Assembly (NCBI GenBank): GCA_965262615.1
Contig: OZ253545.1
Coordinates: 384,001-448,000, forward strand
Direction of reading: 5' to 3'
Source: Alphaproteobacteria bacterium
GTDB lineage: Bacteria; Pseudomonadota; Alphaproteobacteria; GM7ARS4; G965262615
Length of the DNA: 64,000 nt
Shown: positions 2,566 through 32,535 of the stretch, one piece after another
Numbering within the stretch: the first letter of the stretch is position 1
Layout of the letters: each line of letters opens with the position of its first letter
Translations under genes and position numbers: made by a program
The notes under the pieces: model-generated
What the model was told of the DNA's origin: nothing
Databases searched by the model: none
The model's input: the letters and a program-made list of their open reading frames with translations, nothing else

Positions 2566-2639
<74 letters not shown>

Positions 2640-2653
2640 CACCAAGAGAAGAG

Positions 2654-2965
2654 ATGATGGAAAAGAAAGTTTTTATTTATCAAAAACAAAAAAAAGCAAC
2701 GCAATCGGCAGAACCTTCTGTGCGATGGTGTCTGGCATGGAATCATGACAGAGCCCCCATGGATAGCCTCACAGGATGGACGGGCAGTCATGCCGATGGC
2801 GCACCGCCATTGATGTTTGCCAGTCGCGAACAAGCCATCGCCTATGCCACCCGCGCGGGATTGACCTATCAGCTAGAAGAGCCGCCCCTCGCGCCCGTCA
2901 AAGGCAAAAGTTATGCCGCCCAATTTAAGAAAAAACCGCCAAGGCCCCGTAGCTCAGATGGATAG
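2654..2965 (+). CDS. ETC complex I accessory subunit (NDUFS4-like)
   Basis: IY..K.ATQS, DSLTGWTGS, F.SREQAIAYA pattern; typical position between tRNA-Pro and tRNA-Arg. Confidence 0.75.
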   Translation: MMEKKVFIYQKQKKATQSAEPSVRWCLAWNHDRAPMDSLTGWTGSHADGAPPLMFASREQAIAYATRAGLTYQLEEPPLAPVKGKSYAAQFKKKPPRPRSSDG

Positions 2966-3019
2966 AGCAGCGGATTTCTAATCCGCCGGTCGCAGGTTCG
3001 AGTCCTGCCGGGGTCACCA
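2943..3019 (+). tRNA. tRNA-Arg(TCT)
   Basis: Acceptor GGCCCCG/CGGGGTC, anticodon arm GCGGA-TTTCTAA-TCCGC, GGTTCGAGTCC, encoded CCA. Confidence 0.97.
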
Positions 3020-5826: not shown

Positions 5827-6281
5827 CCCATAAACGCACGGTCAATAGAAAATGACGCAAGCCCCCCCAAAGACAGAGCCTTGACAAAAACACCGCTTAA
5901 ATCCACCACCCCCACAATGGGCTGTCCAGCCGAGCCGCGAACGGAATACGAATGCACCAGAGCAATATCCCCGCGCTGCAAAAAAGAAGGCGATATTTTC
6001 TCAAAGTCTTTTAAGATCAGCGACAGTGCCCGCGGCAAAAAATGACGGTGGTCGTCATCATTTTCCTCGCGCAACAGAGCCTTCATCACATAATGAGATT
6101 TTTTGGCACTGGCGTAGGAAGGAACATTTCTCATGGGATTGTGATTGGTCATGGCTTTGATGGCACGGCTTGCGAAGTGACAGCAATCGCTTGTGCCAAA
6201 AACAAATGACTGTCCTTCCATGTGGGAAAAATAGTCATTGAGCCGTTGCTCCCAGTCGGTGAGGCGGGTGTGGGTGCTCAT
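5814..6281 (-). CDS. Tail-associated NlpC/P60-like protein (DUF6950-like)
   Basis: RLTDWEQRL, FVFGTSDCCHF, QRGDIALV; position just before the tip gene; ATG overlaps upstream TGA. Confidence 0.7.
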   Translation of the reverse strand: MSTHTRLTDWEQRLNDYFSHMEGQSFVFGTSDCCHFASRAIKAMTNHNPMRNVPSYASAKKSHYVMKALLREENDDDHRHFLPRALSLILKDFEKISPSFLQRGDIALVHSYSVRGSAGQPIVGVVDLSGVFVKALSLGGLASFSIDRAFMGWRV

Positions 6282-6874
6282 CACGCGCTGCCCCATTCAA
6301 TTTCTTGATGGGCGGTGCGCGTGACAAAAGAAAAAAACCGATCACTGCCATCGGTCGCCACATGGCTCTCGGAAGTGTAGCGTTTGATGCGAGGATATTC
6401 CCAGTCGGCAAGCAAATTTTTCAGCGTCAAAGAAATAGAGGCATCTTCGCCAAGAGATAGCGACATATTATCCATCCGACCCTGAAACAACAGCAGAGGG
6501 TCTTGAACCAATTGATGGTCGTCATCAAAAAAAACGATAAAAATCTTGCCATTGCGTCCTTGATAATGCTCTTGCAACGCCAAGGAAATCAGATGAGAAG
6601 GAATGCCACTCAATTGCAATTGCACACTGTAGGGACGAATTTCCGCTCCTTCTTCAAAAGAGGAGACCTCAAGCAAATCTCCCACCGCCGTGAAAATTTC
6701 CTTTTGATTGTCGTCATTGCTGTCAAAGGCGATATCGGAGGAGGCATCAGTGAGACGAATATGTCCCGAGAGAAAGTGCAAATCCACAAGAATGATGGGA
6801 CCAATCACCACGGAGGATTGGCTGGCTTGTTGCATCTGTTGCGAGATATGGCGAGAGGATTGTTGCGTCTGCAT
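6281..6874 (-). CDS. Phage baseplate hub / minor tail protein
   Basis: QLSGIP, YQGR, LFQGRMDNM, DRFFSFV..EIEWG; position in tail module. Confidence 0.72.
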   Translation of the reverse strand: MQTQQSSRHISQQMQQASQSSVVIGPIILVDLHFLSGHIRLTDASSDIAFDSNDDNQKEIFTAVGDLLEVSSFEEGAEIRPYSVQLQLSGIPSHLISLALQEHYQGRNGKIFIVFFDDDHQLVQDPLLLFQGRMDNMSLSLGEDASISLTLKNLLADWEYPRIKRYTSESHVATDGSDRFFSFVTRTAHQEIEWGSA

Positions 6875-7536
6875 CAGGGATAGCTCTCTATGAGTTCAAA
6901 TTGCATGGAGGCTTGATTCATTTTTTCAAAAGAGAATCGGCTTTGTTTGTCGTTGGCGAGACGCATGACGCAAAAACAATCATGGGTGATGATGCGACTG
7001 CCATCACGGGGCGGCAGGCGCAGCACAGGCGTGATGGCAAGATGAGCGACACCGTCAGACATCACAACGGCATCGCTGGTGAGGCTATGGAGTGCGTTGT
7101 GTCCATTGGCGAGCAAAATCGTGATGGTGTCTCCTTTTTTCAAGACGGTGCTGTCGCCATTTTTTTGCTGCCACCCTCGTGTGACAAGCTGCGAGCCCTT
7201 TTGATTCGCTCCCTTGATGACGGGCGCGCCACTGGCGTGTCCTTTGGGAGTTTTGCCATGAGGCGGAAAAAAGAGAAACTTCCTCTGAGGGCCATTGAGG
7301 GACAAAATAAATGCCGTCACCTGACGCACCATCTCTTCGCCATGAAGAGCATAGCTCACATGAGCGCGCCAGTGAGAATTGGGATTGGCGAGCAGTTGGG
7401 TGTAGCCCGTGAGGGGAGAGGTGTAGCTTTGGGTGTGTGTCACCAGTTCCCATTGCATGCGGGTGGGGGCTGGATTGGTCATCCAGCGGCGCAGCGAAGG
7501 AATGGTGGAGATGCTGATGCCTGAGTTTTGCGTCAT
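6874..7536 (-). CDS. Phage distal tail protein (putative)
   Basis: SPLTGYTQ, GANQKGSQL, LKKGD, ITPVLR; immediately follows tape measure. Confidence 0.65.
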   Translation of the reverse strand: MTQNSGISISTIPSLRRWMTNPAPTRMQWELVTHTQSYTSPLTGYTQLLANPNSHWRAHVSYALHGEEMVRQVTAFILSLNGPQRKFLFFPPHGKTPKGHASGAPVIKGANQKGSQLVTRGWQQKNGDSTVLKKGDTITILLANGHNALHSLTSDAVVMSDGVAHLAITPVLRLPPRDGSRIITHDCFCVMRLANDKQSRFSFEKMNQASMQFELIESYP

Positions 7537-7592
7537 GAGATGACAGCAAGGTAAGGGTTTTGCGGGTGATGGCTATGGCGTAATGGTGCGTG

Positions 7593-8534
7593 TTAGCGTC
7601 TTCCCATGGCGCGCGCATAGGAGCCACCCTCAAAAGAGCGGTGTGCGACTTCATCGGCGCCGGCGCGAGCGGCTTTTTGCACAATGCGCGGCTCTTCCTC
7701 CCGCAAGACGGCGCGAATGCGCTCTTCAACGCCTGAATCGGCGCCGCGCGCATCAATGTGATTGTTAATCACCACCGATGCTGACCCCCCGCCGCCACCG
7801 GCGGCAACGCCCAGCTCCCCCGAGGACAAACGGCGCAGCGGCATGATGGCTTCAGGTCCCGCCTCCCCCATCATGCCAAGCGGAAAGAGGGTGGATGAGC
7901 CCACAACGCCGCCGCGAGCAAAAGGAATCACCTCGCCGTGTTCAAACACGCCTCCTTTGGCAAAAAAGAAATTGGAGATTGTGTCCACAATGCTACCGAA
8001 ACCGCCGCCACCTAAAAAATTACCGATAAGACTCCCGCCGCCGCCTGATCCAACGCCAAACAAACTGCCCAATCCACCGCTCAGAGAACCAAAGAGCGCA
8101 CTAATGCCGCCGTCAATCAGTTTATCAAAAAGATTGCCGCCCAAGCCCTTCAAAATGCCGCCGATGTCCGGCGCATTCCATTCTCCCTTCAAAATGCCAT
8201 CCTTCAGGGTGTCTTTGAGCTCCGTGCCGATACTTTCGGTCGCCTCTTCAACTTCGTCTGAAAAATCTTTCGGCTTCAGCGCAATATCTGAGACAAAGTC
8301 ATTAAATCCTTTTTCAATGGCATTGGCACTGGCATCAAGGCTTTTGATTAGGCTCTCTCCGAATGAATCGCTGCCTTTGGCGGTTTTCTTGCTGCTTTCA
8401 GCAAGCTTGTCACTGCATTCTTCAAGTTTTTTGCTGTTGGCGGCGATGCGGTCAAAGGCGCGTTGCATTTCCTCCTGCTGTTCGGGGGAATAGTTAAAGA
8501 CGGCGGTGGTGAGTCTTCCTATGGGGGCTTCCAT
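7593..8534 (-). CDS. Short tail tape measure protein (313 aa)
   Basis: Helical N-terminus, Gly-rich middle, FAKGGVF/FARGGVV and GMMGEAGPEAIMPL motifs; AGAGGA RBS upstream. Confidence 0.85.
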   Translation of the reverse strand: MEAPIGRLTTAVFNYSPEQQEEMQRAFDRIAANSKKLEECSDKLAESSKKTAKGSDSFGESLIKSLDASANAIEKGFNDFVSDIALKPKDFSDEVEEATESIGTELKDTLKDGILKGEWNAPDIGGILKGLGGNLFDKLIDGGISALFGSLSGGLGSLFGVGSGGGGSLIGNFLGGGGFGSIVDTISNFFFAKGGVFEHGEVIPFARGGVVGSSTLFPLGMMGEAGPEAIMPLRRLSSGELGVAAGGGGGSASVVINNHIDARGADSGVEERIRAVLREEEPRIVQKAARAGADEVAHRSFEGGSYARAMGRR

Positions 8535-8564
8535 GGTGTATCCTCTGTGATGATGGGGAGGGAT

Positions 8565-9380
8565 ATGATGATGTGGATGCGTGTGATTGTTTATGGAACG
8601 GCGTTATCTTTCCTGTTGGCGAGTGATGGCTCGGCGCGTCAAAACAGCGATCTGGAAATAGCGCAGCTGTGCGGCATTGCTCACGAAATCATACCATTGT
8701 TGTCTTTGAGACATTGCAAGAAAATCGTAAAAACCGAGAGGGGAAGGAATTGTGACAGTGATTATTTAGGTTGCTATGAAGTATCGTTGCGTCATGCTGA
8801 AAGTGATTCTTTTGTCACTTCGAATAACAATGAGAAGAATGTTTATTATGAGTTACGGATAGAGGAAGAGAATTGTTACGGCGGTTACGGTACTTATTTA
8901 GGCTGTTATGAAGTATCATTGCGTCATGCTGAAAGTGATTCTTTTGTCACTTCGAATAACAATGAGAAGAATGTTTATGATGAGTTACGGATAGCGGATG
9001 CTCATTGTCGTGGCACTTATTTAGGCTGTTATGAAGTGTCATTGCGTCATGCTGAGAGTGATTCTTTTGTCACTTTGAATCGCAATGATAAGAATATTTA
9101 TTATGAGTTACGGATAGCGGATGCGGGTTGTCGTGGTGCTTATTTGGGTTGTTATGAAGTATCATTGCGTCATGCTGAGAGTGATTCTTTTGTCACTTTG
9201 AATCGCAATGATAAGAATATTTATTATGAGTTACGGATAGCGGATGCGCGTTGTCGCGGTGCTTATTTGGGCTGTTATGAAGTATCATTGCGTCATGCTG
9301 AGAGTGATTCTTTTGTCACTTTGAATCGCAATGATAAGAATATTTATTATGAATTTCGGGTCTCCCCATCGGGCGGGTAA
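8565..9380 (+). CDS. Secreted Cys-repeat protein, paralog 1 (5 repeats)
   Basis: Start reassigned to ATG 8565 (GGGGAGGG RBS, same MMMW start as paralogs); signal peptide; YLGCYEVSL...YYELRI repeats. Confidence 0.85.
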   Translation: MMMWMRVIVYGTALSFLLASDGSARQNSDLEIAQLCGIAHEIIPLLSLRHCKKIVKTERGRNCDSDYLGCYEVSLRHAESDSFVTSNNNEKNVYYELRIEEENCYGGYGTYLGCYEVSLRHAESDSFVTSNNNEKNVYDELRIADAHCRGTYLGCYEVSLRHAESDSFVTLNRNDKNIYYELRIADAGCRGAYLGCYEVSLRHAESDSFVTLNRNDKNIYYELRIADARCRGAYLGCYEVSLRHAESDSFVTLNRNDKNIYYEFRVSPSGG

Positions 9381-9382
9381 CT

Positions 9383-10189
9383 ATGATGATGTGGATGCGT
9401 GGAATTGTTTATGGAACGGCATTATCTTTCCTGTTGGTGAGTGATGGCTCGGCGCGCCAAAAAAGCGATCAAGCAACGGTGCAGCTGTGCCAGATTATTC
9501 ACGACATCATGCCGTTGTTGTCTGTGAGACATTGCAAGAAAATCTTACAAACCGAGAGAGGGAGGCTTTGTGACAGTGATTATTTAGGCTGCTATGATGT
9601 ATCGCTGCTTTATTCTGAAGACAGTGTTTTTTATGGATTGGGTCGCGATGCTCGGGATATTTATTACCAACTTCGGATAGAAGATGGTCGTTGTTTCGGT
9701 GATTATTTAGGCTGTTATGAAGTGTCGTTGCTTTATTCTGAGGACAGTGTTTTTTATGGATTGGGTCGCGATGCTCGGGATATTTACTATCAACTTCGGA
9801 TAGAAGACGGTCGCTGTTTCGGTGATTATTTAGGCTGTTATGAAGTGTCGTTGCTTTATTCTGAGGACAGTGTTTTTTATGGATTGGGTCGCGATGCTCG
9901 GGATATTTACTATCAACTTCGGATAGAAGATGGTCGCTGTTTCGGTGATTATTTAGGCTGTTATGAAGTGTCATTGCTTTATTCTGAGGACAGTGTTTTT
10001 TATGGATTGGGTCGCGATGCTCGGGATATTTACTATCAACTTCGGATAGAGGACGGTCGCTGTTTCGGTGCTTATTTAGGCTGTTATGAAGTGTCGTTGC
10101 TTTATTCTGAGGACAGTGTTTTTTATGGATTGGGTCGCGATGCTCGGGATATTTACTATCAATTTCGGGTCTCCCCATCAGGCGGGTAA
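9383..10189 (+). CDS. Secreted Cys-repeat protein, paralog 2 (5 repeats)
   Basis: Signal peptide; unit CFGDYLGCYEVSLLYSEDSVFYGLGRDARDIYYQLRIEDGR. Confidence 0.85.
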   Translation: MMMWMRGIVYGTALSFLLVSDGSARQKSDQATVQLCQIIHDIMPLLSVRHCKKILQTERGRLCDSDYLGCYDVSLLYSEDSVFYGLGRDARDIYYQLRIEDGRCFGDYLGCYEVSLLYSEDSVFYGLGRDARDIYYQLRIEDGRCFGDYLGCYEVSLLYSEDSVFYGLGRDARDIYYQLRIEDGRCFGDYLGCYEVSLLYSEDSVFYGLGRDARDIYYQLRIEDGRCFGAYLGCYEVSLLYSEDSVFYGLGRDARDIYYQFRVSPSGG

Positions 10190-10191
10190 CT

Positions 10192-10998
10192 ATGATGATG
10201 TGGATGCGTGGAATTGTTTATGGAACGGCGTTATCTTTCCTGTTGGTGAGTGATGGCTTGGCGCGTCAAAACAGCGATCTGGAAATAGCGCAGCTGTGCG
10301 GCATTGCTCACGAAATCATGCCGTTGTTGTCTTTGAGACATTGCAAGAAAATCGTAAAAACCGAGAGGGGAAGGAATTGTGACAGTGATTATTTAGGTTG
10401 CTATGAAGTGTCATTGCTTCATGCTGATAGTCTTGTTTTTTCCACTTCTAAAAGGAGCGAGAAGAATCTTTATTATGAGTTACGGATAGCGGATGCGGGT
10501 TGTCGTGGTGCTTATTTAGGTTGTTATGAGGTTTCGTTGCTTCATGCTGATAATCTTGTTTTTTCCACTTCTAAAAGGAGCGAGAAGAATCTTTATTATG
10601 AGTTACGGATAGCGGATGCGGGTTGTCGTGGTGCTTATTTAGGTTGTTATGAGGTTTCGTTGCTTCATGCTGATAATCTTGTTTTTTCCACTTCTAAAAG
10701 GAGCGAGAAGAATCTTTATTATGAGTTACGGATAGCGGGTGTGGGTTGTCGTGGTGATTATTTGGGTTGTTATGAGGTTTCGTTGCTTCATGCTGATAAT
10801 CTTGTTTTTTCCACCTCTAAAAGGAGCGAGAAGAATCTTTATTATGAGTTACGGATAGCGGATACGCGTTGTGATGATGATTATTTAGGCTGTTATGAGG
10901 TTTCGTTGCTTCATGCTGATAATCTTGTTTTTTCCACTTCTAAAAGGAACGAGAAGAATCTTTATTATGAGTTGCGTGTCTCCTCATCAGGCTGGTAA
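10192..10998 (+). CDS. Secreted Cys-repeat protein, paralog 3 (5 repeats)
   Basis: Signal peptide; unit CRGAYLGCYEVSLLHADNLVFSTSKRSEKNLYYELRIADAG. Confidence 0.85.
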   Translation: MMMWMRGIVYGTALSFLLVSDGLARQNSDLEIAQLCGIAHEIMPLLSLRHCKKIVKTERGRNCDSDYLGCYEVSLLHADSLVFSTSKRSEKNLYYELRIADAGCRGAYLGCYEVSLLHADNLVFSTSKRSEKNLYYELRIADAGCRGAYLGCYEVSLLHADNLVFSTSKRSEKNLYYELRIAGVGCRGDYLGCYEVSLLHADNLVFSTSKRSEKNLYYELRIADTRCDDDYLGCYEVSLLHADNLVFSTSKRNEKNLYYELRVSSSGW

Positions 10999-11000
10999 CT

Positions 11001-11804
11001 ATGATGATGTGGCTGCGTGGAATTGTTTATGGAACGGCGTTATCTTTCCTGTTGGTGAGTGATGGCTTGGCGCGCCAAAACAGCGATCAAGCAACGGTGC
11101 AGCTGTGCCAGATTATTCACGGCATCATGCCATTGTTGTCTGTGGACAATTGCAAGAAAATCTTAAAAACCAAGAAAGGAAGTTGTCGTGGTGATTATTT
11201 AGGCTGTTATGAAGTATCATTGCTTCATGCTGATAGTGGTGTCTTTTACACTTTGAATCGCAACGAGCGGAATCTTTATTATGAGTTGCGGATAGCGGAT
11301 GCGGGTTGTCGTGGTGATTATTTAGGCTGTTATGAAGTGTCGTTGCTTCATGCTGATAGTGGTGTCTTTTACACTTTGAATCGCAATGAGCGGAATCTTT
11401 ATTATGAGTTACGGATAGCGGATGCGGGTTGTCGTGGTGATTATTTAGGCTGTTATGAAGTGTCGTTGCTTCATGCTGACAGTGGTGTCTTTTACACTTT
11501 GAATCGCAACGAGCGGAATATTTATTATGAGTTACGGATAGCGGATGCGGGTTGTCGTGGTGATTATTTAGGCTGTTATGAAGTATCATTGCTTCATGCT
11601 GACAGTGGTGTCTTTTACACTTTGAATCGCAACGAACGGAATATTTATTATGAGTTACGGATAGCGGATGCGGGTTGTCGTGGTGCTTATTTAGGCTGTT
11701 ATGAAGTATCATTGCTTCATGCTGATAGTGGTGTCTTTTACACTTTGAATCGCAATGAGCAGAATATTTATTATGAGTTACGGGTCTCCCCATCAGGCTG
11801 GTAA
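11001..11804 (+). CDS. Secreted Cys-repeat protein, paralog 4 (5 repeats, four CRGDYLGC)
   Basis: Signal peptide; unit CRGDYLGCYEVSLLHADSGVFYTLNRNERNLYYELRIADAG. Confidence 0.85.
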   Translation: MMMWLRGIVYGTALSFLLVSDGLARQNSDQATVQLCQIIHGIMPLLSVDNCKKILKTKKGSCRGDYLGCYEVSLLHADSGVFYTLNRNERNLYYELRIADAGCRGDYLGCYEVSLLHADSGVFYTLNRNERNLYYELRIADAGCRGDYLGCYEVSLLHADSGVFYTLNRNERNIYYELRIADAGCRGDYLGCYEVSLLHADSGVFYTLNRNERNIYYELRIADAGCRGAYLGCYEVSLLHADSGVFYTLNRNEQNIYYELRVSPSGW

Positions 11805-11806
11805 CT

Positions 11807-12733
11807 ATGATGATGTGGATGCGTGTGATTGTTTATGGAACGGCGTTATCTTTCCTGCTGGTGAGTGATGTCTCGGCGCGCTCTCAAGAGACAGTGCTGT
11901 GCCACATTGTTCACAGCGTCATGCCATTGTTGTCTGTGGACAATTGCAAGAAAACCTTACAAACCAAAAGAGGAAGACGTTGTTCCAGTGACCGTTATTT
12001 AGGCTTTTATGATGTATCGTTGCTTTATTCTGCGGATGATATTTTTCGTGGATTGGGTGACGATCATCGGGATATTTACTATCAACTTCGGATAGAAGAT
12101 GATGGCTGTGCCAGTGACCGTTATTTAGGTTTTTATGATGTATCGTTGCTTTATTCTGCGGATGATATTTTTCGTGGATTGGGTGACGATCATCGAGATA
12201 TTTATTACCAACTTCGGATAAAAGATGGTGGTTGTTCCAGTGACCGTTATTTAAGCTGTTATGATGTATCGTTGCTTTATTCTGCGGATGATATTTTTCG
12301 TGGATTGGGTGACGATGCTCGGGATATTTACTATCAACTTCGGATAGAAGACGGTCGCTGTTCCAGTGCTTATTTAGGCTGTTATGATGTATCGTTGCTT
12401 TATTCTGCGGATGATATTTTTCGTGGATTGGGTGACGATGCTCGGGATATTTACTATCAACTTCGGATAGAAGATGGTCGCTGTTCCAGTGCTTATTTAG
12501 GCTGTTATGATGTGTCGTTGCTTTATTCTGCGGATGATATTTTTCGTGGATTGGGTGACGATGCTCGGGATATTTACTATCAACTTCGGATAGAAGATGG
12601 TCGCTGTTCCAGTGCTTATTTAGGCTGTTATGATGTGTCGTTGCTTTATTCTGCGGATGATATTTTTCGTGGATTGGGTGACGATGCTCGGGATATTTAC
12701 TATCAATTCCGTGTCTCCTCATCAGGCTGGTAA
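11807..12733 (+). CDS. Secreted Cys-repeat protein, paralog 5 (6 repeats)
   Basis: Signal peptide; unit CSSAYLGCYDVSLLYSADDIFRGLGDDARDIYYQLRIEDGR. Confidence 0.85.
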   Translation: MMMWMRVIVYGTALSFLLVSDVSARSQETVLCHIVHSVMPLLSVDNCKKTLQTKRGRRCSSDRYLGFYDVSLLYSADDIFRGLGDDHRDIYYQLRIEDDGCASDRYLGFYDVSLLYSADDIFRGLGDDHRDIYYQLRIKDGGCSSDRYLSCYDVSLLYSADDIFRGLGDDARDIYYQLRIEDGRCSSAYLGCYDVSLLYSADDIFRGLGDDARDIYYQLRIEDGRCSSAYLGCYDVSLLYSADDIFRGLGDDARDIYYQLRIEDGRCSSAYLGCYDVSLLYSADDIFRGLGDDARDIYYQFRVSSSGW

Positions 12734-12735
12734 CT

Positions 12736-13539
12736 ATGATGATGTGGATGCGTGGAATTGTTTATGGAACGGCGTTATCTTTCCTGTTGGTGAGTGATGG
12801 CTCGGCGCGATTCGATGGTCGTCAAGAGACGGTGCTGTGCAAGATTGTTCACGAAATCATGCCGTTGCTGCCTGTGACCAATTGTAAGAAAATCTTACAA
12901 TCTAAAAGGGGAAGTGAATGTTCCAGTGCTTATTTAGGCTGTTATGAAGTGTCGTTGCTTTTTGCTGATAGCCGTTCCTTTTATACTTGGGATAGCAAGG
13001 AAGGGAATATTTATTATGAGTTACGGATAGCCGATTCGGATTGTGTTGGTGCTTATTTAGGTTGTTATGAGGTGTCACTGCTTTTTGCTGATAGCCGTTC
13101 CTTTTATACTTGGGATAGCAAGGAAGGGAATATTTATTATGAGTTACGGATAGCCGATTCGGATTGTGTTGGTGCTTATTTAGGCTGTTATGAGGTGTCG
13201 TTGCTTTTTGCTGATAGCCGTTCCTTTTATACTTGGGATAGCAAGAAAGGGAATATTTATTATGAGTTACGGGTAGCTGATTCGGATTGTGTTGGTGCTT
13301 ATTTGGGTTGTTATGAGGTGTCACTGCTTTTTGCTGATAGCCGTTCCTTTTATACTTGGGATAGCAAGGAAGGGAATATTTATTATGAGTTACGGATAGC
13401 CGATTCGGACTGTAGTGGTGCTTATTTAGGTTGCTATGAGGTTTCATTGCTTCCTGCGAAGAGTCGTTCTTTTTATACTTGGGATAGCAATGAGGGGAAT
13501 ATTTATTATGAGTTTCGGGTCAACCCATCGGGCGGGTAA
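12736..13539 (+). CDS. Secreted Cys-repeat protein, paralog 6 (5 repeats)
   Basis: Signal peptide; unit CVGAYLGCYEVSLLFADSRSFYTWDSKEGNIYYELRIADSD. Confidence 0.85.
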   Translation: MMMWMRGIVYGTALSFLLVSDGSARFDGRQETVLCKIVHEIMPLLPVTNCKKILQSKRGSECSSAYLGCYEVSLLFADSRSFYTWDSKEGNIYYELRIADSDCVGAYLGCYEVSLLFADSRSFYTWDSKEGNIYYELRIADSDCVGAYLGCYEVSLLFADSRSFYTWDSKKGNIYYELRVADSDCVGAYLGCYEVSLLFADSRSFYTWDSKEGNIYYELRIADSDCSGAYLGCYEVSLLPAKSRSFYTWDSNEGNIYYEFRVNPSGG

Positions 13540-13544
13540 TTATT

Positions 13545-13860
13545 TTATTTTTGTTGTTTGAGACACTCGCGCTCCAGAATTTGAATTTTGTGAAAATCCC
13601 GTGGCGAGATATGCAGATGTGCGAGGCGTGCGGCAATGGACAGGGCGTTGTAATCCAGCCCAATCCACTGTCCTGAGGGAGCGATGCGCCACTGGGTGAT
13701 GACCAGCAAAAAAAGCCGCAACGCGCGCTCATTGGATGGCAACAGTGTGAATTCGTGCGGTGCGTGGGCATCAATCACCTCTTGCGGTGCGCCCAGAGCC
13801 TTGAGGTCATTGTGGCGGGCAGTGCCGTCCGTCAGGAGGTGACGGACGGCACCGATGAGT
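13545..13860 (-). CDS. Tail assembly chaperone, -1 frame extension (lambda T-like, DUF1799-like)
   Basis: TQWR, GLDYNAL, IQILERECL; frame is open from the slippery site at ~13860 to the stop at 13545. Confidence 0.8.
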
Positions 13861-13867
13861 TTTTTTC
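13822..13867 (-). promoter_or_regulatory. Programmed -1 ribosomal frameshift signal (A AAA AAC plus 13-bp hairpin)
   Basis: Minus strand GAA AAA AAC, 6-nt spacer, then GTGCCGTCCGTCA-cctcc-TGACGGACGGCAC perfect stem. Confidence 0.88.
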
Positions 13868-14191
13868 AGACGCTGCTCCCGACAAGGATTCAATATAAGC
13901 TTTGAGCAATGCCGCGCGAATGTAGGGGATGTCAATCATGCGCTTTTTCCAATGGTCATCAAAGGGCAGTGGCTGGTCGTGTTCATCCACTATGTCACGC
14001 CAGCCCACAAGAACCTTGTGAAGCAAGCGCACATCGCCATTGTCGCCATCATCCACCAGCTGACGCAAAGACTGCTGTCCCATCTCCACAAAGCAGGCGG
14101 TGAATTGTTGCTGCTGGATGCCGTTTTCTGAAGGCACGCTCACCACAATGGGGCACGCAAAGCGGCGGTCAATGATGATTTTAAAGCTCAT
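13832..14191 (-). CDS. Tail assembly chaperone (lambda G-like)
   Basis: Follows tail tube gene; VLVGWRDIVDE..PLPF; ends in EKN slippery site. Confidence 0.8.
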   Translation of the reverse strand: MSFKIIIDRRFACPIVVSVPSENGIQQQQFTACFVEMGQQSLRQLVDDGDNGDVRLLHKVLVGWRDIVDEHDQPLPFDDHWKKRMIDIPYIRAALLKAYIESLSGAASEKNSSVPSVTS

Positions 14192-14200
14192 GATGCGTGC

Positions 14201-15124
14201 CTATTGGGTGGTGATGGTGAGTTCATCATTGCCCTCATGGGGCAGCAGATGCATGTCAAATTTGAGGGTGCGAATGCCGTCTCGGTCACCGTAGCTGGGC
14301 TGTGTCAATTGAACTTTGGGCGCGCTCCATCCCACAACAGAGCCGCTTTTTGTGCCCAAAGTGAGCGAAAAAATGCCTGTGGCGGCGTTTTCCATCTTGT
14401 CAAAAAAGTTGAACGACGAGACGGACGGGTCTTTAATCTCAATGCTTCCTGTGGCGTGACGCTCCGTGATCTCCACCGATTCAGAATTCATGTAAGAGAT
14501 GAATGGCGCAGAGACTCCCATATCCAATGAGAGCGAGGCGGTGGTGACATTGCGTCCAAACAGCACCATGCTGGCGACCTCATTTTTTGACAGTGTGAGA
14601 GGCGTTTTGAAGGCACTGTAATTGGCATTGGGCAAGGATGCAGCCTCTGGAGTCTGGTAGAGTCCCCTGAAGGTGAAAGAAAGAGACGGGTAGTCGTTGG
14701 CGTTCAAAGAGGCATTGAAGGTGCCGCGCGCACCCGTGACCTTATGCAATGTGCCATCCTGATACACATAAAAAGTGAGGGAGGAAAAATGATCGGAGAT
14801 GGGCTTGTAGAAAACGGCGTTGCTGGTGCTGTTTTGCTTAAATCCGCATCCCTTGAGCAACAAAGCCCATGCGGGGGCGACATTTTTTGTTCCCGAACCG
14901 GCGGCGGTGACGGAGAACGATAATTGCACATGGCGATTGGACAGGGCGGCAAAATTGCCACCAAGCCACTGTTTGACGGCGGGCAGCTCTTTGCGTTCAG
15001 CATTGAGAGGCGATATGTCAAGATCGCTGACCTCAATGGCATTGGTGCTGGCGGACGGTGTGGCATCTCGAGCGTAAGAGCTCTCAAGGGCGGCGAGGAT
15101 GACTCGTTTTTTGGTCAGAGGCAT
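14201..15124 (-). CDS. Major tail tube protein
   Basis: AALESSY, LLKGCGF, HKVTGARGTF, LSFTFRGLY, YGDRDGI; position in module. Confidence 0.8.
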   Translation of the reverse strand: MPLTKKRVILAALESSYARDATPSASTNAIEVSDLDISPLNAERKELPAVKQWLGGNFAALSNRHVQLSFSVTAAGSGTKNVAPAWALLLKGCGFKQNSTSNAVFYKPISDHFSSLTFYVYQDGTLHKVTGARGTFNASLNANDYPSLSFTFRGLYQTPEAASLPNANYSAFKTPLTLSKNEVASMVLFGRNVTTASLSLDMGVSAPFISYMNSESVEITERHATGSIEIKDPSVSSFNFFDKMENAATGIFSLTLGTKSGSVVGWSAPKVQLTQPSYGDRDGIRTLKFDMHLLPHEGNDELTITTQ

Positions 15125-15133
15125 GGGATTCTC

Positions 15134-15571
15134 CTAAGGTTGGATGGTTTTTTGAGTGACGAATTGATCCTCCCACCACAGAACACCTTTGCCGAATTGA
15201 ACGAGGCGTCCTTTGATAAAATCGGGGGCACTGTGGGTGTCGTCTTGCTGTTTTTTGATGAGAGGAATCAGAGCCGTGCGCGCTTTGAGCACATGAGTCA
15301 GTTGTCCCAAAGAGCCGGTGTGGCGCGGTTGTTGATGAGACGCTTGATAGCACTGCAGAATGGAAAAGCGCACAGCGATTGTTTGTGAGCCATCGGAAAA
15401 ACGGCTGCTTTTGGCATTTTCCTCAAGGGGCACCACATATGCTGCGGGCAGCTGATGGGATGGCGGGGCATCTTTTTTGTTGGCAATCATCATCACCGAG
15501 CCACTGCTGGCAAAGAGGTCGTCAGCGGTCAGTTGGGTGATGATGGATTGAAAGAAACGGCGGCTGTCCAT
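15134..15571 (-). CDS. Tail terminator / neck protein (putative)
   Basis: PAAYVVPL, GVLWWEDQF; lies between adaptor and tube genes. Confidence 0.65.
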   Translation of the reverse strand: MDSRRFFQSIITQLTADDLFASSGSVMMIANKKDAPPSHQLPAAYVVPLEENAKSSRFSDGSQTIAVRFSILQCYQASHQQPRHTGSLGQLTHVLKARTALIPLIKKQQDDTHSAPDFIKGRLVQFGKGVLWWEDQFVTQKTIQP

Positions 15572-15575
15572 GATG

Positions 15576-15980
15576 CTAAAAGGAAGACAGCCGTGAGCCG
15601 CTCAATTGACGAGGATGAGCCTGCCATTTCACTTCATTGGTGTCTGTGGGTGGTTGGTTGAGATCGTAAGTGCCGTGGGCGATGTCTTCCAGCATTTGTT
15701 TGGCATCTTGATAGCGTTTGCGCACTTCGTCACTGGGGTCGGTGGTGTGAAGGCGAAAGCGCGCAATATCGCATGCCAAAATGGTGAGCAGAGGGAATGT
15801 CTCGGAGAGCGGCAGCTGATAGCGTTTGAGCAAGTAAATATTGATCTCGGCATCGGCATCCTCTAAGGCGCGCGTGACGATGCTTGAATTGATGGTGGTC
15901 TGATTGACACGGTCGGTGAGGGCAATGAGTTCATCTTGCCCAAATTTTTTCTTGAGGTCGTCCAAAGAGGCGTATGACAT
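15576..15980 (-). CDS. Mu gp36-like head-tail adaptor (DUF1320)
   Basis: MSYASLDDL, ALEDADAEINIYL..RYQLPL, ACDIARFRL. Confidence 0.88.
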   Translation of the reverse strand: MSYASLDDLKKKFGQDELIALTDRVNQTTINSSIVTRALEDADAEINIYLLKRYQLPLSETFPLLTILACDIARFRLHTTDPSDEVRKRYQDAKQMLEDIAHGTYDLNQPPTDTNEVKWQAHPRQLSGSRLSSF

Positions 15981-16038
15981 GGAAAAATCCTTGTTGGTGT
16001 GTGCCTCAGCCGTTGTGTGCGGCTGAGGCACGAGGCGG

Positions 16039-16938
16039 TTATGCGAGGCGCGGCTCTATATGAACATCCACCACATTGTGATTGACATTGGATGAGCCAT
16101 TGCTGAGTCGTTCGGCTTTGACGACCGCATAGGCGGCGGCACGCAAGGCGGGCGGAACGATGAGCAAGTTGGGCATGATATTCAAAGGACGCTCGTTGTC
16201 ACCTTTGAGGCTCATCATGGCACTCATGGCTTGATTGAAATTGTCGCTGGTGAGAGCAGCTTTTGAGCCATATGCCAGTTGCCACAATCCGTATCCTGCG
16301 GCGGCGCGTGCATCCACGCCGTAGATGTACTCTTTGCGGTAGAAGACATTATCATCGCCGTCATCATCTTTGCGCATGAGCGTGGGGGCTTTGCGAGTTT
16401 GATAGATGAGGGGTTTGATGGCGCGATGGCGATCCACGAGGAACCAAGGCGTTTTGTCACCGGTTTGCATGTTGGAGGCGGTTTTCTTTTTGCCATTGGC
16501 ATCGGTGACGGGATGACTGGTGTCAAAGAAAGGACGCCCGTCATAGCCTGTTTTGGTGAAGCCGTCATTGAGCAGGGGCCAGACGAGATCATCGGGCAGT
16601 TGAGCGGCGGCATCTCCCATGTTGGCGAACAGCAGTTTGTATGCGCCCAGTTGTTCGTCTTCAATGTCGTTGCGAGCAACGGCGAGGGTGAGTTCCCAGT
16701 CTTCGTTTTCAATGGAAAAGCCGTGTTGCGAGACTCCTCGCACCACGCGATCGCCCACCCAAGGACGCAAAGCGGGCAGATCGCCCAGCCAAGGATAGGT
16801 GTTACGCGTGGTATTAGAGGGGGCATCCATAGCCACATGGGAGTAGCTCGCCCGATGACCCTCAAAGGCTTCGGCGAAAGATTCATTGAAGCCCACATAA
16901 GCGGACTCAAGAATGTCGGGGGTGATGGTGATTGCCAT
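16039..16938 (-). CDS. Mu-like major capsid protein (gpT family)
   Basis: YPWLGDLP, WVGDR, YDGRPFFDTSHP, KPLIYQTR, YGVDARAAAGYGLWQLAYGS. Confidence 0.93.
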   Translation of the reverse strand: MAITITPDILESAYVGFNESFAEAFEGHRASYSHVAMDAPSNTTRNTYPWLGDLPALRPWVGDRVVRGVSQHGFSIENEDWELTLAVARNDIEDEQLGAYKLLFANMGDAAAQLPDDLVWPLLNDGFTKTGYDGRPFFDTSHPVTDANGKKKTASNMQTGDKTPWFLVDRHRAIKPLIYQTRKAPTLMRKDDDGDDNVFYRKEYIYGVDARAAAGYGLWQLAYGSKAALTSDNFNQAMSAMMSLKGDNERPLNIMPNLLIVPPALRAAAYAVVKAERLSNGSSNVNHNVVDVHIEPRLA

Positions 16939-16965
16939 AGTGATTAGTCTCCTTACGGTATGTGG

Positions 16966-17385
16966 TTAGTTGATGATGACCCAGACACTTTTGTTATCAT
17001 TGTCCAGAGCAAGCACTGTGCCTGCTGATTTGCGGGCATTGCTGTTGCTGTTGGTGCTGACGGTTTGGTCATCCATGGCATAGACGGTTGTGCCGATGTG
17101 TGACGGGGTGACCTTGTGGCTGTTGCTTGTGTCATTGTCAAACAGAAAGACACCTCGCTCCAAAGTGACAGTGGCATTGCCTGCGGTGGTTTGAGCATCA
17201 ATACCTGTTTGGGCGATGCCCATGATGGGGCTGTTGGCAGAAGCGTGTCCTGCCGGCACGGCATAGCCATGGCGATCAAGGGCGACCATAGCGCCGGCAT
17301 AGAGGGTGACCGATGCCGCAACAGAATAGGCAACGCTTGTGCCATCACGGCGAGCGGTCGGTTTGTCTTGGGTGAGCGCAGTCAT
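16966..17385 (-). CDS. Capsid decoration/cement protein (putative)
   Basis: MTALTQD, LYAGAMVAL, ERGVFLFDN, VYAMDDQTV; lies between protease and capsid. Confidence 0.7.
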   Translation of the reverse strand: MTALTQDKPTARRDGTSVAYSVAASVTLYAGAMVALDRHGYAVPAGHASANSPIMGIAQTGIDAQTTAGNATVTLERGVFLFDNDTSNSHKVTPSHIGTTVYAMDDQTVSTNSNSNARKSAGTVLALDNDNKSVWVIIN

Positions 17386-17403
17386 AAAGCTCTCCTTATG
17401 AGG

Positions 17404-18471
17404 TTAGAGGGTGGAAGAATCTGACGAATCACTGTCTTTGAAGCGCGCTCGCGCGGTGGCAAAACGCTGATGATCCAAATTCAGCTGGCGACAGATGGAT
17501 AGATCCGCTTCACTCAGCGCGGATTGGTGAGAAGACGAAGCATGAGAAGACGGTGTCACAACGGGGGTGAGGGTGGGCTGTCCTTGGAGAAATTGCTCAA
17601 AGCCTTCGGAATCTTGATTGTGATAGCTGATCGCCCACGAACGCAAGGACGGCGGAATTTTGCCTTTGGCAATCGCATCACTGATGCGTTGCTCGCGCGC
17701 TTGGTGGCTTGCGGTCTCTTGGGTCATGGCAAGGCTTTGTGCCAAGGATGATGCGTGGGCGGCTTGTTCGGAAATGATTTTGCTCAAATTCTCTTGCAAT
17801 GCTGACCAATCAGGATCGCCATTGGCATCGGTTTGAGTCACGCCGCTCAGTGTGAGCAATTGGGTGTAGGCATCGCGGGCGGCGGCGGTTTGTTGTTTCA
17901 GGTGAGCGATGGCATCCAAAATGGCTTGCAAGGACAATTCATCATTCTCCCTTTGAATATTGAGGCTTTGAGCAATGGCTTGTGTGGTGTCATGTGTCTG
18001 GTTATGACGGTCCACATTGAGTGCCTTGAGGGCGAGGTTCGGATTATTGGTCAAGCCGGCACGCAAAATACGAAGAATGATGCCGTCATCATCATGAAGA
18101 AAAACGGGACTCAAATAGCGGTATTCTCCTTGTTGAATGGCTTGAGCGGCTTTGGGAGTCCATTCCACATGTCCCCAGATGCCATCGTCTCGTTTTTCAA
18201 TGTCACGAATCCATCCAGCCGCAGGAGCTGCCATGCCCACACCGGGGCGAGCGGCATAATCGGTTTGATGGTCGTAATCAATCACCAAGCCTGTTTCTGA
18301 TTGGCTGGCGCGAATGACTTCATCTATGTTTTCAACATGATAGGGACCGCGTCCATCCTGCCCTGAAAAAATGCCAGACGGCAGCAAATGAACGCATGGA
18401 GGAGCTTTGCCTTCCAGCAAAACTGAATGAATTTCAAGACTCTCGGAAGAGGGATCTGTGTGGCAGCTCAT
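17404..18471 (-). CDS. Mu-like prohead protease/scaffold (gpI family)
   Basis: GQDGRGP, IDYDHQT, APAAGWI, VEWT, YRYLSPVF, AGLTNNPNL; AAGGAG RBS. Confidence 0.93.
   Translation of the reverse strand: MSCHTDPSSESLEIHSVLLEGKAPPCVHLLPSGIFSGQDGRGPYHVENIDEVIRASQSETGLVIDYDHQTDYAARPGVGMAAPAAGWIRDIEKRDDGIWGHVEWTPKAAQAIQQGEYRYLSPVFLHDDDGIILRILRAGLTNNPNLALKALNVDRHNQTHDTTQAIAQSLNIQRENDELSLQAILDAIAHLKQQTAAARDAYTQLLTLSGVTQTDANGDPDWSALQENLSKIISEQAAHASSLAQSLAMTQETASHQAREQRISDAIAKGKIPPSLRSWAISYHNQDSEGFEQFLQGQPTLTPVVTPSSHASSSHQSALSEADLSICRQLNLDHQRFATARARFKDSDSSDSSTL

Positions 18472-30242: not shown

Positions 30243-32535
<2,293 letters not shown>

What the first reader, a model, noticed from the sequence alone, without database searches (positions are those of the whole stretch)
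8565..13539. Array of six secreted variable-repeat proteins: a candidate diversified binding-protein repertoire
Seen: six head-to-tail paralogs separated by only 2 nt (TAA-CT-ATG). Each has a near-identical signal peptide (MMMWxRxIVYGTALSFLLxSD..A), a short two-Cys cap, and 5 repeats of about 41 aa (6 in paralog 5). The repeat scaffold C-x3-YLGCY(E/D)VSL ... YY(E/Q)LRI is constant. The segments between are gene-specific, for example HADSGVFYTLNRNERN, YSEDSVFYGLGRDARD and FADSRSFYTWDSKEGN. Differences between repeats of one gene are mostly third-position synonymous, so the + frame is under selection. The DNA is AT-richer than its flanks (spot counts 21/60 GC at 8761-8820 versus 31/60 at 31201-31260). 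I do not recognise the family. Inference: a multivalent fixed-scaffold, variable-loop protein set, such as lectins, adhesins, host effectors or phage-exclusion factors, with one specificity per paralog.
Basis: partly seen in the sequence, partly recalled or inferred. Interest (0 to 1): 0.92.

Follow-up and report, generated by a model that had tools for sequence, protein, structure and literature searches.

The report
Orphan secreted repeat-protein array in prophage
A small-genome marine bacterium carries six back-to-back genes, inside a dead prophage, for exported proteins that each show five or six copies of their own variable loop on a constant cysteine- and tyrosine-rich frame; no relative was found anywhere, and the proteins most likely bind something outside the cell.

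Summary
Six + strand paralogs (8565-13539; 267-308 aa) are joined by TAA-CT-ATG. Each has a Sec-type signal peptide, a two-Cys cap and 5 repeats (6 in gene 5) of 41 aa. The + frame is under purifying selection: pN/pS is 0.17, against 2.38 for the long antisense ORFs. Between paralogs the scaffold is conserved (dN/dS 0.08) and the 18-residue loop is not (1.37; 17 of 18 loop columns vary, against 3 of 15 scaffold columns). All six mature proteins have exactly 12 Cys.

The array lies head-on inside a prophage remnant, where the 5' half or more of the tape-measure gene is missing. No homolog appeared in any search that ran.

The 1.54 Mb genome is rich in secreted ankyrin and Sel1 arrays of the same AT-rich composition. 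Contigs of other runs hold the array borders and hint at other paralog combinations.

Best reading: an exported, disulfide-bonded, multivalent binding-protein repertoire, probably for host interaction. The function is untested.

The parts
8526..8564 (+). Leader of gene 1, with a strong Shine-Dalgarno-like GGGGAGGG a few bases before the ATG
   Evidence: Sequence read. Contigs of runs X1, X4 and X5 fit from 8526 onward but carry other letters before it (table 7). No sigma-70-like promoter was predicted upstream of gene 1.
8565..9380 (+). Paralog 1 (271 aa): signal peptide, two-Cys cap, 5 repeats; two loop variants (RHAESDSFVTSNNNEKNV x2, RHAESDSFVTLNRNDKNI x3)
   Evidence: GC 0.407, GC3 0.37.
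9383..10189 (+). Paralog 2 (268 aa): 5 repeats, one loop peptide (LYSEDSVFYGLGRDARDI) in 5 of 5 repeats; YYQLRI-type scaffold
10192..10998 (+). Paralog 3 (268 aa): 5 repeats; its first ~210 nt (signal peptide and cap) are 95-100% identical to paralog 1, then identity drops to 63-85%
11001..11804 (+). Paralog 4 (267 aa): 5 repeats, loop LHADSGVFYTLNRNERN(L/I)
   Evidence: Used as the query for most searches.
11807..12733 (+). Paralog 5 (308 aa): 6 repeats; repeats 1-2 have F instead of the second Cys, yet the mature protein still has 12 Cys
12736..13539 (+). Paralog 6 (267 aa): 5 repeats, loop LFADSRSFYTWDSKEGNI; its stop codon lies 5 nt from the stop of the convergent chaperone gene
7593..8534 (-). 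Tape-measure protein remnant (313 aa), C-terminal part only; diverges from gene 1 across 30 bp
   Evidence: PHROG phrog_1716, residues 25-311 on profile positions 655-930 of 943. Aligns only to residues 321-571/590, 389-567/631, 811-937/937 and 1114-1240/1281 of intact viral tape-measure ORFs.
13545..14191 (-). Tail assembly chaperone pair (DUF1799 T-part 13545-13778; G-part 13832-14191), which normally lies directly before the tape-measure gene
   Evidence: Pfam PF08809 at 4e-11; phrog_680 and phrog_569.
3031..18471 (-). Prophage remnant. Gene order: J-like fibre, tail proteins, distal tail protein, tape-measure remnant, [array], chaperones, tube, terminator, adaptor, major head protein, head protease. 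No portal, terminase, integrase or lysis genes.
   Evidence: The next ORFs are host genes: EipB-like at 18526-19338 and sucA from 19320.
2943..3019 (+). tRNA-Arg(tct) abutting the end of the J-like gene; probable old integration site (inference)

Best explanation
The six genes form one translationally coupled operon. They encode Sec-exported, disulfide-bonded, all-beta tandem-repeat proteins of a family with no detectable relatives.

Each protein has a short, probably helical two-Cys cap followed by five or six 41-residue units. A constant Tyr/Cys-rich frame (C-x3-YLGCY(E/D)VSL ... F ... YY(E/Q)LRI) holds two hydrophilic sub-loops around an invariant Phe. The loops are nearly the same in all units of one protein and different between proteins.

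The likely mode of action is multivalent binding by avidity: each paralog offers several copies of one binding surface for a repetitive ligand outside the cytoplasm, and the array offers about six such surfaces.

The bacterium has a 1.54 Mb genome with secreted ankyrin and Sel1 arrays of the same AT-rich composition, and relatives in runs labelled marine and sponge metagenome. The most likely target is therefore a host (or host-derived) surface, matrix or glycan, with the proteins acting as a lineage-specific host-interaction repertoire.

The array sits, moron-like, in a prophage that has since decayed. It evolves by homogenisation within genes and by exchange of modules (signal peptide, cap, repeats) between paralogs.

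Shown: real coding frame, export signal, conserved Cys count, scaffold/loop contrast, mosaic structure, prophage context, absence of relatives in the searches run.
Inferred: disulfides, fold, binding, multivalency, ligand, host role.
For: Anatomy:
- Six paralogs, with 5 of 5 junctions TAA-CT-ATG.
- Gene 1 has a strong SD-like GGGGAGGG.

Coding frame:
- Within-gene pN/pS is 0.17 in the + frame and 2.38 in the frame of the long antisense ORFs.

Export:
- 6 of 6 genes have a positively charged start, a 12-residue core of KD 2.14, and G/V at -3 with A at -1 before R25. None has a lipobox Cys.
- 6 of 6 mature proteins have exactly 12 Cys although repeat number differs; Tyr is 10%.
- A DsbA-family gene is in the genome.

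Scaffold against loop:
- Between paralogs, dN/dS is 0.08 for the scaffold and 1.37 for the loop.
- Variable columns are 3 of 15 against 17 of 18.
- Loop DNA p-distance is 0.04 within genes and 0.38 between genes.

Mosaic structure:
- Paralogs 1 and 3 have 97% identical caps but 39% identical loops, with a sharp break after about 210 nt.
- Signal-peptide pS between genes is 0.114, against 0.49 for the scaffold.

Genome context:
- 48 Ank_2 matches.
- A tandem ankyrin array whose members share a signal peptide, with GC3 0.37-0.44. The array here has GC3 0.34-0.40; core and prophage genes have 0.54-0.62.
- Sel1 arrays.

Other samples:
- Contigs from all four runs laid carry array pieces.
- The left border is bridged in X5 (record 18, 8077-8590) and the right border in X1 and X4 (records 7 and 15).
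- One X5 contig joins a paralog-6-type cap to paralog-2-type repeats inside the shared scaffold.

Precedent:
- Sponge-associated phages encode signal-peptide ankyrin proteins that lower phagocytosis (preprint 10.1101/608950, passages read).
Against: - No homolog, so nothing is transferred from a characterised protein.
- Both structure predictions are unusable (mean pLDDT 35.9 and 38.3). The fold, the disulfides and even the loop/strand assignment are unproven.
- No binding, expression or localisation data exist.
- No sigma-70-like promoter was predicted upstream of gene 1.
- The route beyond the periplasm is not evident. The only two T2SSF matches lie beside one of the two secretins in a Tad-like arrangement, the other secretin stands alone, and no VirB4 was found.
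- Loop dN exceeds dS in only 9 of 15 pairs, with 10-12 synonymous sites per loop. Relaxed constraint fits as well as diversifying selection.
- Loop identity within a gene may reflect recent homogenisation rather than selection for multivalency (within-gene loop pS 0.068, pN 0.032).
- The link to host interaction is guilt by composition and genome style only.
- The chimeric contig comes from a short-read assembly across a 32-nt shared stretch and could be an assembly path artefact.
Confidence: 0.45

Rival explanations
1. Phage-related protection. The array is a prophage moron whose exported products sit in the periplasm or on the surface and block other phages, by masking receptors, blocking DNA entry or acting as decoys. 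The paralogs would be diversified in an arms race with phage receptor-binding proteins.
For: - The array lies inside a tail module with foreign composition and opposite orientation, as morons do.
- The products are exported proteins.
- Loops evolve fast between paralogs.
- Array content seems to differ between samples.
- No obvious route beyond the periplasm was found, which would suit a periplasmic role.
Against: - No match to defence models: 0 of 5 proteins had a stretch passing on its own in PADLOC, and the one weak Cas1fv row scored 21.9 bits.
- No relative in 50,697 phage records or in IMG/VR. A widespread phage moron would be expected to recur there.
- The carrier prophage is dead (no portal or terminase, truncated tape measure), so the array is kept by the bacterium.
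- Its composition matches the genome's ankyrin and Sel1 genes.
Confidence: 0.15
2. Envelope housekeeping. These are periplasmic or cell-surface proteins that bind the bacterium's own wall or polysaccharide, like cell-wall-binding repeat modules. They may be matched to the many tandem glycosyltransferase paralogs of this genome.
For: - The repeats are Tyr-rich and all-beta, with a Sec signal but no evident secretion system.
- The genome holds tandem arrays of GT2-like (10 ORFs) and GT8-like (6 ORFs) genes and 18 tandem membrane-protein paralogs.
- The best, though insignificant, match among solved structures is the GW-module protein Lmo1076, E 0.49.
Against: - The E 0.49 match is chance-level.
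- No Pfam cell-wall-binding family matches.
- The glycosyltransferase arrays have near-average composition (GC3 0.50-0.56), unlike this array.
- Housekeeping envelope proteins are rarely lineage-restricted orphans with fast-evolving loops.
Confidence: 0.15
3. No function. The array is a recent selfish amplification of an ORF-like repeat, or decaying junk in a dead prophage.
For: - It lies in a decaying prophage.
- It is an orphan.
- No expression data exist.
Against: - All six ORFs are intact.
- pN/pS is 0.17 in frame and scaffold dN/dS is 0.08 across paralogs with dS about 0.8.
- 12 Cys are kept in 6 of 6 proteins and signal peptides are conserved.
- Array pieces and borders are present beside flanks that differ by roughly 8-14% in run X7 (table 8).
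Confidence: 0.05
4. Assembly artefact: a collapsed or inflated repeat.
For: - Repeats of 123 nt at 91-96% identity, and six paralogs, are hard to assemble.
- No listed contig of the four runs spans the array.
Against: - The genome is a single 1.54 Mb contig without N.
- Each paralog has its own loop sequence and all frames are intact.
- Both borders and several cap-to-repeat stretches recur in contigs of other runs.
Confidence: 0.03

Closest known systems
Phage-encoded secreted ankyrin proteins of sponge-associated phages (ANKp, 'Ankyphages'; preprint 10.1101/608950, passages read)
   Same: - A tandem-repeat protein with an N-terminal signal peptide and no membrane anchor.
- Carried on phage DNA in bacteria associated with marine sponges.
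- Proposed to be released and to act on the animal host.
   Different: - No sequence relation: Ank models do not match.
- Here the repeats are 41-aa, Cys/Tyr-rich and predicted all-beta, not 33-aa helical.
- There are six tandem paralogs, not one gene.
- The carrier phage is a dead remnant.
- No functional test exists.
This genome's own tandem array of signal-peptide ankyrin proteins (G000 about 994.5-1009.3 kb)
   Same: - Tandem paralogs on one strand with a shared, conserved signal peptide.
- Internal repeats.
- AT-rich composition (GC3 0.37-0.44 against 0.34-0.40 here).
   Different: - A different repeat family, recognised by Pfam.
- Not in a prophage.
- Genes are spaced by about 100 nt or more, not 2 nt.
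Prophage morons such as lambda lom and bor (recalled, not fetched)
   Same: An extra, host-benefiting gene set inside a late or tail region, with composition unlike the phage's.
   Different: - It runs head-on to the tail operon.
- It coincides with loss of the 5' half or more of the tape-measure gene, so it is not a neutral add-on.
- An own promoter and terminator were not found.
Multivalent tandem-repeat lectins with one site per repeat, such as the five-bladed tachylectin-2 or the RSL/PLL-type beta-propellers (recalled, not tested)
   Same: - Five or six repeats of about 40 aa.
- Predicted beta structure.
- Near-identical putative sites per repeat, which would give avidity.
   Different: - No sequence match.
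- No confident model, so a closed propeller is unproven.
- AlphaFold placed about three strands per repeat at very low confidence.
Diversity-generating retroelement targets (fixed scaffold, variable binding residues)
   Same: The concept of a constant frame with hypervariable ligand-binding positions, often phage-borne.
   Different: - No reverse transcriptase in the genome.
- Differences are not adenine-specific (165 of 308 involve A, and all six base-pair classes occur).
- Diversity here is stored as paralogs.

Membership tests
Any Pfam family | A match above the curated cut-off, with a stretch that passes on its own, shared by the paralogs | tested here: not met
- DUF7729 scored 33.4 and 24.9 bits (cut-off 25) in paralogs 6 and 4, and Cytotoxic scored 31.7 bits in paralog 6. 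None had a passing stretch.
- 2CSK_N scored 24.7 bits (cut-off 23.2) with one stretch, in paralog 5 only.
- Each family appears in 1-2 of 6 paralogs and on short pieces; scores are summed over repeats. I read these as chance.
Ankyrin-repeat effectors (ANKp-like) | Ank-type repeats recognised by Ank Pfam models | tested here: not met
   No Ank family appears among the hits for 6 of 6 paralogs at E up to 1.
Ankyrin-repeat effectors (ANKp-like) | N-terminal signal peptide without a membrane anchor | tested here: met
   Rule-based check only: charged start, hydrophobic core KD 2.14, G/V at -3 and A at -1 in 6 of 6 genes. SignalP was not available.
Prophage moron | Extra gene(s) within a prophage, with composition unlike the neighbouring phage genes | tested here: met
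   GC 0.42 and GC3 0.34-0.40, against GC3 0.54-0.62 for the phage genes. The array lies between the chaperone and tape-measure genes.
Prophage moron | Own promoter and terminator | tested here: inconclusive
   The consensus scan found no promoter-like site upstream of 8565 and no terminator after 13539. The scan covers sigma-70 consensus sites only.
Prophage moron | Leaves the phage's own genes intact | tested here: not met
   The tape-measure ORF is only the C-terminal 313 aa of a protein that is 590-1281 aa in four related viral contigs.
DGR variable protein | Reverse transcriptase with a template repeat | tested here: not met
   0 RVT_1 matches in the whole 1.54 Mb genome; the control rang in 3 of 14 genomes.
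DGR variable protein | Differences confined to adenines of the template | tested here: not met
   165 of 308 loop differences involve A, and all six classes of base difference occur.
Known anti-phage defence proteins (PADLOC) | A match to a defence-system model | tested here: not met
   4 of 5 paralogs tested had no row. One had Cas1fv at 21.9 bits with no passing stretch. Paralog 3 was not sent.
Beta-propeller or other repeat lectins | A closed fold with one site per blade | tested here: inconclusive
   The two AlphaFold2 runs gave mean pLDDT 35.9 (6-row alignment) and 38.3 (single sequence). Only 'all-beta repeats, helical cap' can be read, and that weakly. No fold search was run because low-confidence models give meaningless matches.
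Cell-wall-binding repeat or GW modules | A sequence match to the module | tested here: not met
   The best solved-structure match was Lmo1076 at E 0.49, with no passing stretch. No Pfam match.
Outer-membrane beta-barrel | C-terminal aromatic residue and few cysteines | tested here: not met
   3 of 6 proteins end in W and 3 of 6 in G. There are 12 Cys per mature protein.

The most novel reading that the evidence does not exclude
The array is a germline-encoded library of binders built on a previously unseen beta-repeat scaffold. Each gene displays 5-6 copies of one paratope-like loop pair. New specificities arise in a loop, spread through all units of a gene by intragenic conversion, and are re-paired with caps and signal peptides by recombination between paralogs and strains. 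The symbiont would use this library to recognise or mask variable host or phage surface molecules. This would be both a new protein fold family and a new way for a reduced-genome symbiont to keep a diversified recognition repertoire.
Probability: 0.25. Interest if true: 0.85.

Novelty: new variant of a known kind. Interest (0 to 1): 0.6.

Why it matters
Bacteria that live with animals often rely on secreted repeat proteins (ankyrin, Sel1/TPR, LRR) to deal with the host. Almost all known examples belong to families shared with eukaryotes.

This array is a well-formed repeat family with no detectable relatives. Its contrast between a constant frame and variable loops is unusually clean, so the likely functional surface can be read straight from the sequence.

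If it binds host or phage ligands, it adds a new recognition module to symbiosis biology. It would also offer a compact, disulfide-stabilised repeat scaffold of possible use in protein engineering.

The locus also shows how a dead prophage can be kept as the carrier of a host-beneficial gene set. And it gives a tractable case of concerted evolution within genes combined with module exchange between genes.

Tried and rejected
Homology searches, all blank for the array:
- Pfam, PHROGs and PADLOC.
- Sequences of solved structures (best E 0.49).
- The search for homologous proteins: single protein near length, repeat alignment near length, repeat alignment longer. Each scored 8000 candidates. Shorter proteins were not searched.
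- ESM Atlas, twice.
- Motif scans with tblastn confirmation: genome contigs twice, IMG/VR twice, JGI metagenome contigs once.
- tblastn against phage and plasmid records.
- Six-frame HMM or protein searches of 60 relatives, 400 genomes of the class and 400 of the phylum. The class search gave one chance-level row: E 0.0075, 48 aa, 2 internal stops.

These show 'not found with these queries', not absence. The motif scans need near-exact conserved words.

Structure:
- Two AlphaFold2 jobs failed to give a usable model.
- I therefore ran no fold search, and no complex prediction.

Expression:
- No RNA holder was listed among 13 runs. This says nothing about expression.

Habitat:
- Shares of 0.05-0.14 in runs that I did not lay (X6, X8-X13) are not used.

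Ideas rejected:
- The antisense ORFs (223, 222, 267 and 181 aa) as a repeat-expanded tape-measure gene. Their frame has pN/pS 2.38.
- A DGR.
- An internal rather than 5' deletion of the tape-measure gene. My recollection that the remnant's first residues resemble the start of lambda gpH found no support against four intact relatives.
- Target-site duplications or inverted repeats at the array borders. None of 9 nt or more was found.
- A canonical type II or type IV secretion route.

Papers:
- Three searches found no description of this family. They were aimed at sponge-symbiont repeat proteins, not at the sequence itself.
- I read only passages of one preprint.
- Supplements were not consulted.

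Full report
**Observation.** The window holds six head-to-tail + strand ORFs at 8565-9380, 9383-10189, 10192-10998, 11001-11804, 11807-12733 and 12736-13539 (271, 268, 268, 267, 308 and 267 aa). All five junctions read TAA-CT-ATG. Tandem Repeats Finder reports a 123-nt period with 4.8-4.9 copies per gene (5.8 in the fifth) at 91-96% matches.

Each protein starts MMMW(M/L)R(G/V)IVYGTALSFLL(V/A)SD..A. A cap of about 35 residues with two Cys follows, then five (six in gene 5) units of 41 residues with the constant frame C-x3-YLGCY(E/D)VSL ... F ... YY(E/Q)LRI. The array has GC 0.420 against 0.516 and 0.526 for the rest of the window. It also has a strong G- and T-rich strand bias (GC skew 0.26-0.31).

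**Which strand codes.** The array also has long antisense ORFs (223, 222, 267 and 181 aa). I counted synonymous and non-synonymous differences among repeats of the same gene in all six frames.
- The + frame gives pS 0.178 and pN 0.030 (ratio 0.17).
- The frame of the long antisense ORFs gives 2.38.
- The antisense frame that shares wobble positions gives 0.21, as expected for a mirror of the true frame.
- Of 396 pairwise differences, 259 are at third codon positions.

So the + frame is the one under purifying selection, and the antisense ORFs are by-products of the repeat.

**Export.**
- All six N-termini have a charged start and a 12-residue hydrophobic core (Kyte-Doolittle 2.14).
- All six have G or V at -3 and A at -1 before R25, with no lipobox Cys.
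- This is a rule-based reading; SignalP was not available.
- All six mature proteins contain exactly 12 Cys. This holds even for gene 5, which has an extra repeat but F in place of Cys in two units. Tyr makes up 10% of residues.
- A DsbA-family gene is present in the genome.

An even, conserved Cys count in an exported protein argues for disulfides (inference).

The route beyond the periplasm is open. The genome has two secretins. The only two T2SSF matches lie next to one of them in a Tad-like arrangement, the other secretin stands alone, and no VirB4 was found.

**Scaffold against loop.** I split the 33-codon core into scaffold (YLGCYEVSL and YYELRI) and an 18-codon loop.
- Between paralogs, dN/dS is 0.08 for the scaffold (dS about 0.8).
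- For the loop it is 1.37 (dN 0.57, dS 0.42).
- Across the modal repeats of the six genes, 3 of 15 scaffold columns vary against 17 of 18 loop columns (Fisher p 1.4e-5). The single invariant loop residue is a central Phe.
- Loop dN exceeds dS in 9 of 15 gene pairs, with only 10-12 synonymous sites per loop. Diversifying selection is suggested, not proven; relaxed constraint would look similar.

Within a gene the loops are nearly identical. Gene 2 has one loop peptide in 5 of 5 units, and the other genes have two or three close variants. Loop DNA p-distance is 0.04 within genes and 0.38 between genes.

**An unexplained detail.** Within genes, synonymous differences concentrate in the scaffold (pS 0.31) and are rare in the loop (pS 0.068). 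Scaffold DNA is only weakly gene-specific (p-distance 0.088 within genes, about 0.15 between). The nearest neighbour of a unit is often in another gene.

The simplest account is two processes acting together. Loops are homogenised within a gene. Scaffold tracts, being alike in all genes, exchange synonymous variants between genes by gene conversion. This is inference.

**Mosaic genes.**
- Paralogs 1 and 3 are 95-100% identical over the first ~210 nt (signal peptide and cap), then drop to 63-85%. Their caps are 97% identical and their loops 39%.
- Paralogs 2 and 5 have the most similar loops (72%) but caps only 62% alike.
- The signal-peptide codons are far more alike between genes (pS 0.114) than the scaffold codons (0.49).

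The genes are therefore assembled from modules with different histories.

**Not a DGR.** The genome has no RVT_1 match. Loop differences are not adenine-specific: 165 of 308 involve A.

**Context in the window.** The array lies head-on inside a minus-strand prophage remnant. Its parts, in window order:
- J-like central fibre (3031-5826)
- tail proteins (5814-6874)
- distal tail protein (6874-7536)
- tape-measure ORF (7593-8534)
- [the array]
- chaperone T- and G-parts (13545-13778 and 13832-14191)
- tail tube (14201-15124)
- tail terminator, head-tail adaptor and major head protein (16039-16938)
- head protease (17404-18471)

The next ORFs are host genes: an EipB-like protein, then sucA, sucB and lpd. 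So portal, terminase, integrase and lysis genes are missing. A tRNA-Arg abuts the J-like gene.

The 313-aa tape-measure ORF matches only the C-terminal parts of tape-measure profiles (positions 655-930 of 943). It likewise matches only the C-terminal parts of intact ORFs of 590, 631, 937 and 1281 aa in related viral contigs. So the 5' half or more of that gene is gone, exactly where the array sits. No direct or inverted repeats of 9 nt or more flank the array.

**Context in the genome.** The genome is one contig of 1,542,258 bases at GC 0.514.
- The six genes are the only copies of the family and of its signal peptide and cap.
- There are 48 Ank_2 matches.
- These include a tandem array of 11 ORFs at about 994.5-1009.3 kb. 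Several of its members share a conserved signal peptide.
- Low-GC islands coincide with these genes.
- GC3 is 0.34-0.40 for the array, 0.37-0.44 for the ankyrin genes and 0.35-0.47 for the Sel1 genes.
- GC3 is 0.54-0.62 for core and prophage genes and 0.50-0.56 for the glycosyltransferase arrays.
- Further tandem arrays exist: 10 GT2-like ORFs, 6 GT8-like ORFs, Sel1-repeat proteins, and 18 membrane-protein paralogs without a Pfam match.

The six-gene array thus belongs, by composition and architecture, with the genome's eukaryote-like repeat proteins. That is the basis for preferring a host-interaction role. It is association, not proof.

**Other samples.** Thirteen public runs hold part of the stretch, none on record as RNA. 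I laid contigs of four runs.
- The flanks are present in all four. They show few differences in X1, X4 and X5, and about 8-14% differences in X7, a run labelled sponge metagenome.
- The left border is bridged in X5 (a run labelled marine metagenome, from another study; record 18, 8077-8590). The right border is bridged in X1 and X4 (records 7 and 15).
- X1 may be the sample the genome came from, so it is not independent.
- X5 gives no cover at 85% likeness over the repeats of paralogs 1 and 4.
- One X5 contig (record 19, depth 77) runs from a paralog-6-type cap into paralog-2-type repeats, with 32 shared letters at the joint.
- Contigs of X1, X4 and X5 carry other letters before 8526. By my hand translation these read like the C-terminal end of a further paralog. 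The same three runs carry a different cap continuation after 12863.

These are hints that gene content and module combinations differ between strains. They come from short-read contigs and need long reads.

**Relatives and fold.** No relative was found in any search that ran (listed under Tried and rejected).

The weak Pfam rows (DUF7729, Cytotoxic, 2CSK_N) occur in one or two of six paralogs, on short pieces, with scores summed over repeats. I read them as chance.

AlphaFold2 gave mean pLDDT 35.9 with the six-row alignment and 38.3 with a single sequence. Both models show beta strands in the repeats, and the second shows a helix in the cap. No fold can be assigned.

**Reading.** The best-supported explanation is an operon of exported, disulfide-bonded, multivalent binding proteins. 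Each paralog displays several copies of its own loop pair. The set is kept by the bacterium in a decayed prophage and is probably directed at the animal host or its products.

The closest functional precedent is the signal-peptide ankyrin protein of sponge-associated phages that lowers phagocytosis (preprint 10.1101/608950, passages read). The present family is unrelated in sequence and predicted secondary structure.

Rivals are phage exclusion, binding of the cell's own envelope, no function, and misassembly. Their odds and refuting results are given in their own sections.

**Verdict.** It is a new, apparently lineage-restricted repeat family of a familiar general kind (secreted repeat proteins of symbionts; prophage cargo). 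Interest 0.6.

Noticed in passing
window 7593-8534 (-) and 13545-13778 (-): The prophage's tape-measure gene is only a C-terminal 313-aa remnant. It still has an SD-like AGAGGA and an ATG. The array fills the place of its 5' part, directly after the chaperone gene's stop.
   Followed up: yes
window 2566-2640 and 2943-3019 (+): tRNA-Pro(tgg) and tRNA-Arg(tct). The tRNA-Arg abuts the end of the J-like tail gene and is probably the old prophage attachment site.
   Followed up: partly
window 3031-18471 (-): The prophage remnant keeps intact-looking head and tail ORFs (931-aa J-like fibre, major head protein, protease). It lacks portal, terminase, integrase and lysis genes. Host genes start at 18526 (EipB-like) and 19320 (sucA).
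   Followed up: partly
window 8565-13539, scaffold codons: Within genes, synonymous differences pile up in the constant scaffold (pS 0.31), while the loop DNA is almost identical (pS 0.068). Scaffold variants are shared across genes. Gene conversion between paralogs is my guess and is untested.
   Followed up: partly
window 8077-8590, in run X5: The stretch across the tape-measure remnant start and the gene 1 start differs at 60 of 514 letters in the X5 contig. The next flank (7000-7823) differs at 17 of 821. The junction region evolves much faster than its surroundings.
   Followed up: no
G000:C1:994542-1009320 (-): A tandem array of 11 ankyrin-repeat ORFs. Several have a shared signal peptide (MK.WIFIALVLTI...). 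GC is 0.43-0.45.
   Followed up: partly
G000:C1:1358889-1385808 (-): Eighteen head-to-tail paralogs of about 500-aa membrane proteins with no Pfam match in the one tested. This is a very large array for a 1.54 Mb genome.
   Followed up: partly
G000:C1:720946-731502 (-) and 883176-888445 (+): Tandem arrays of 10 GT2-like and 6 GT8-like glycosyltransferase ORFs, which suggests diversified surface glycans.
   Followed up: partly
G000:C1:1115984-1132460: Two clusters of Sel1-repeat proteins with membrane-anchor-like N-termini.
   Followed up: partly
G000:C1:1216773-1222850 and 1460257-1460730: One secretin has two T2SSF-type genes nearby (Tad-like locus). A second secretin stands alone. No VirB4 was found.
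   Followed up: partly
window 25199-26128 (-): A tyrosine recombinase (Phage_integrase with SAM-like N-terminal domain) among housekeeping genes, 7 kb from the prophage remnant. It is probably XerC/D-like rather than the prophage's integrase.
   Followed up: no
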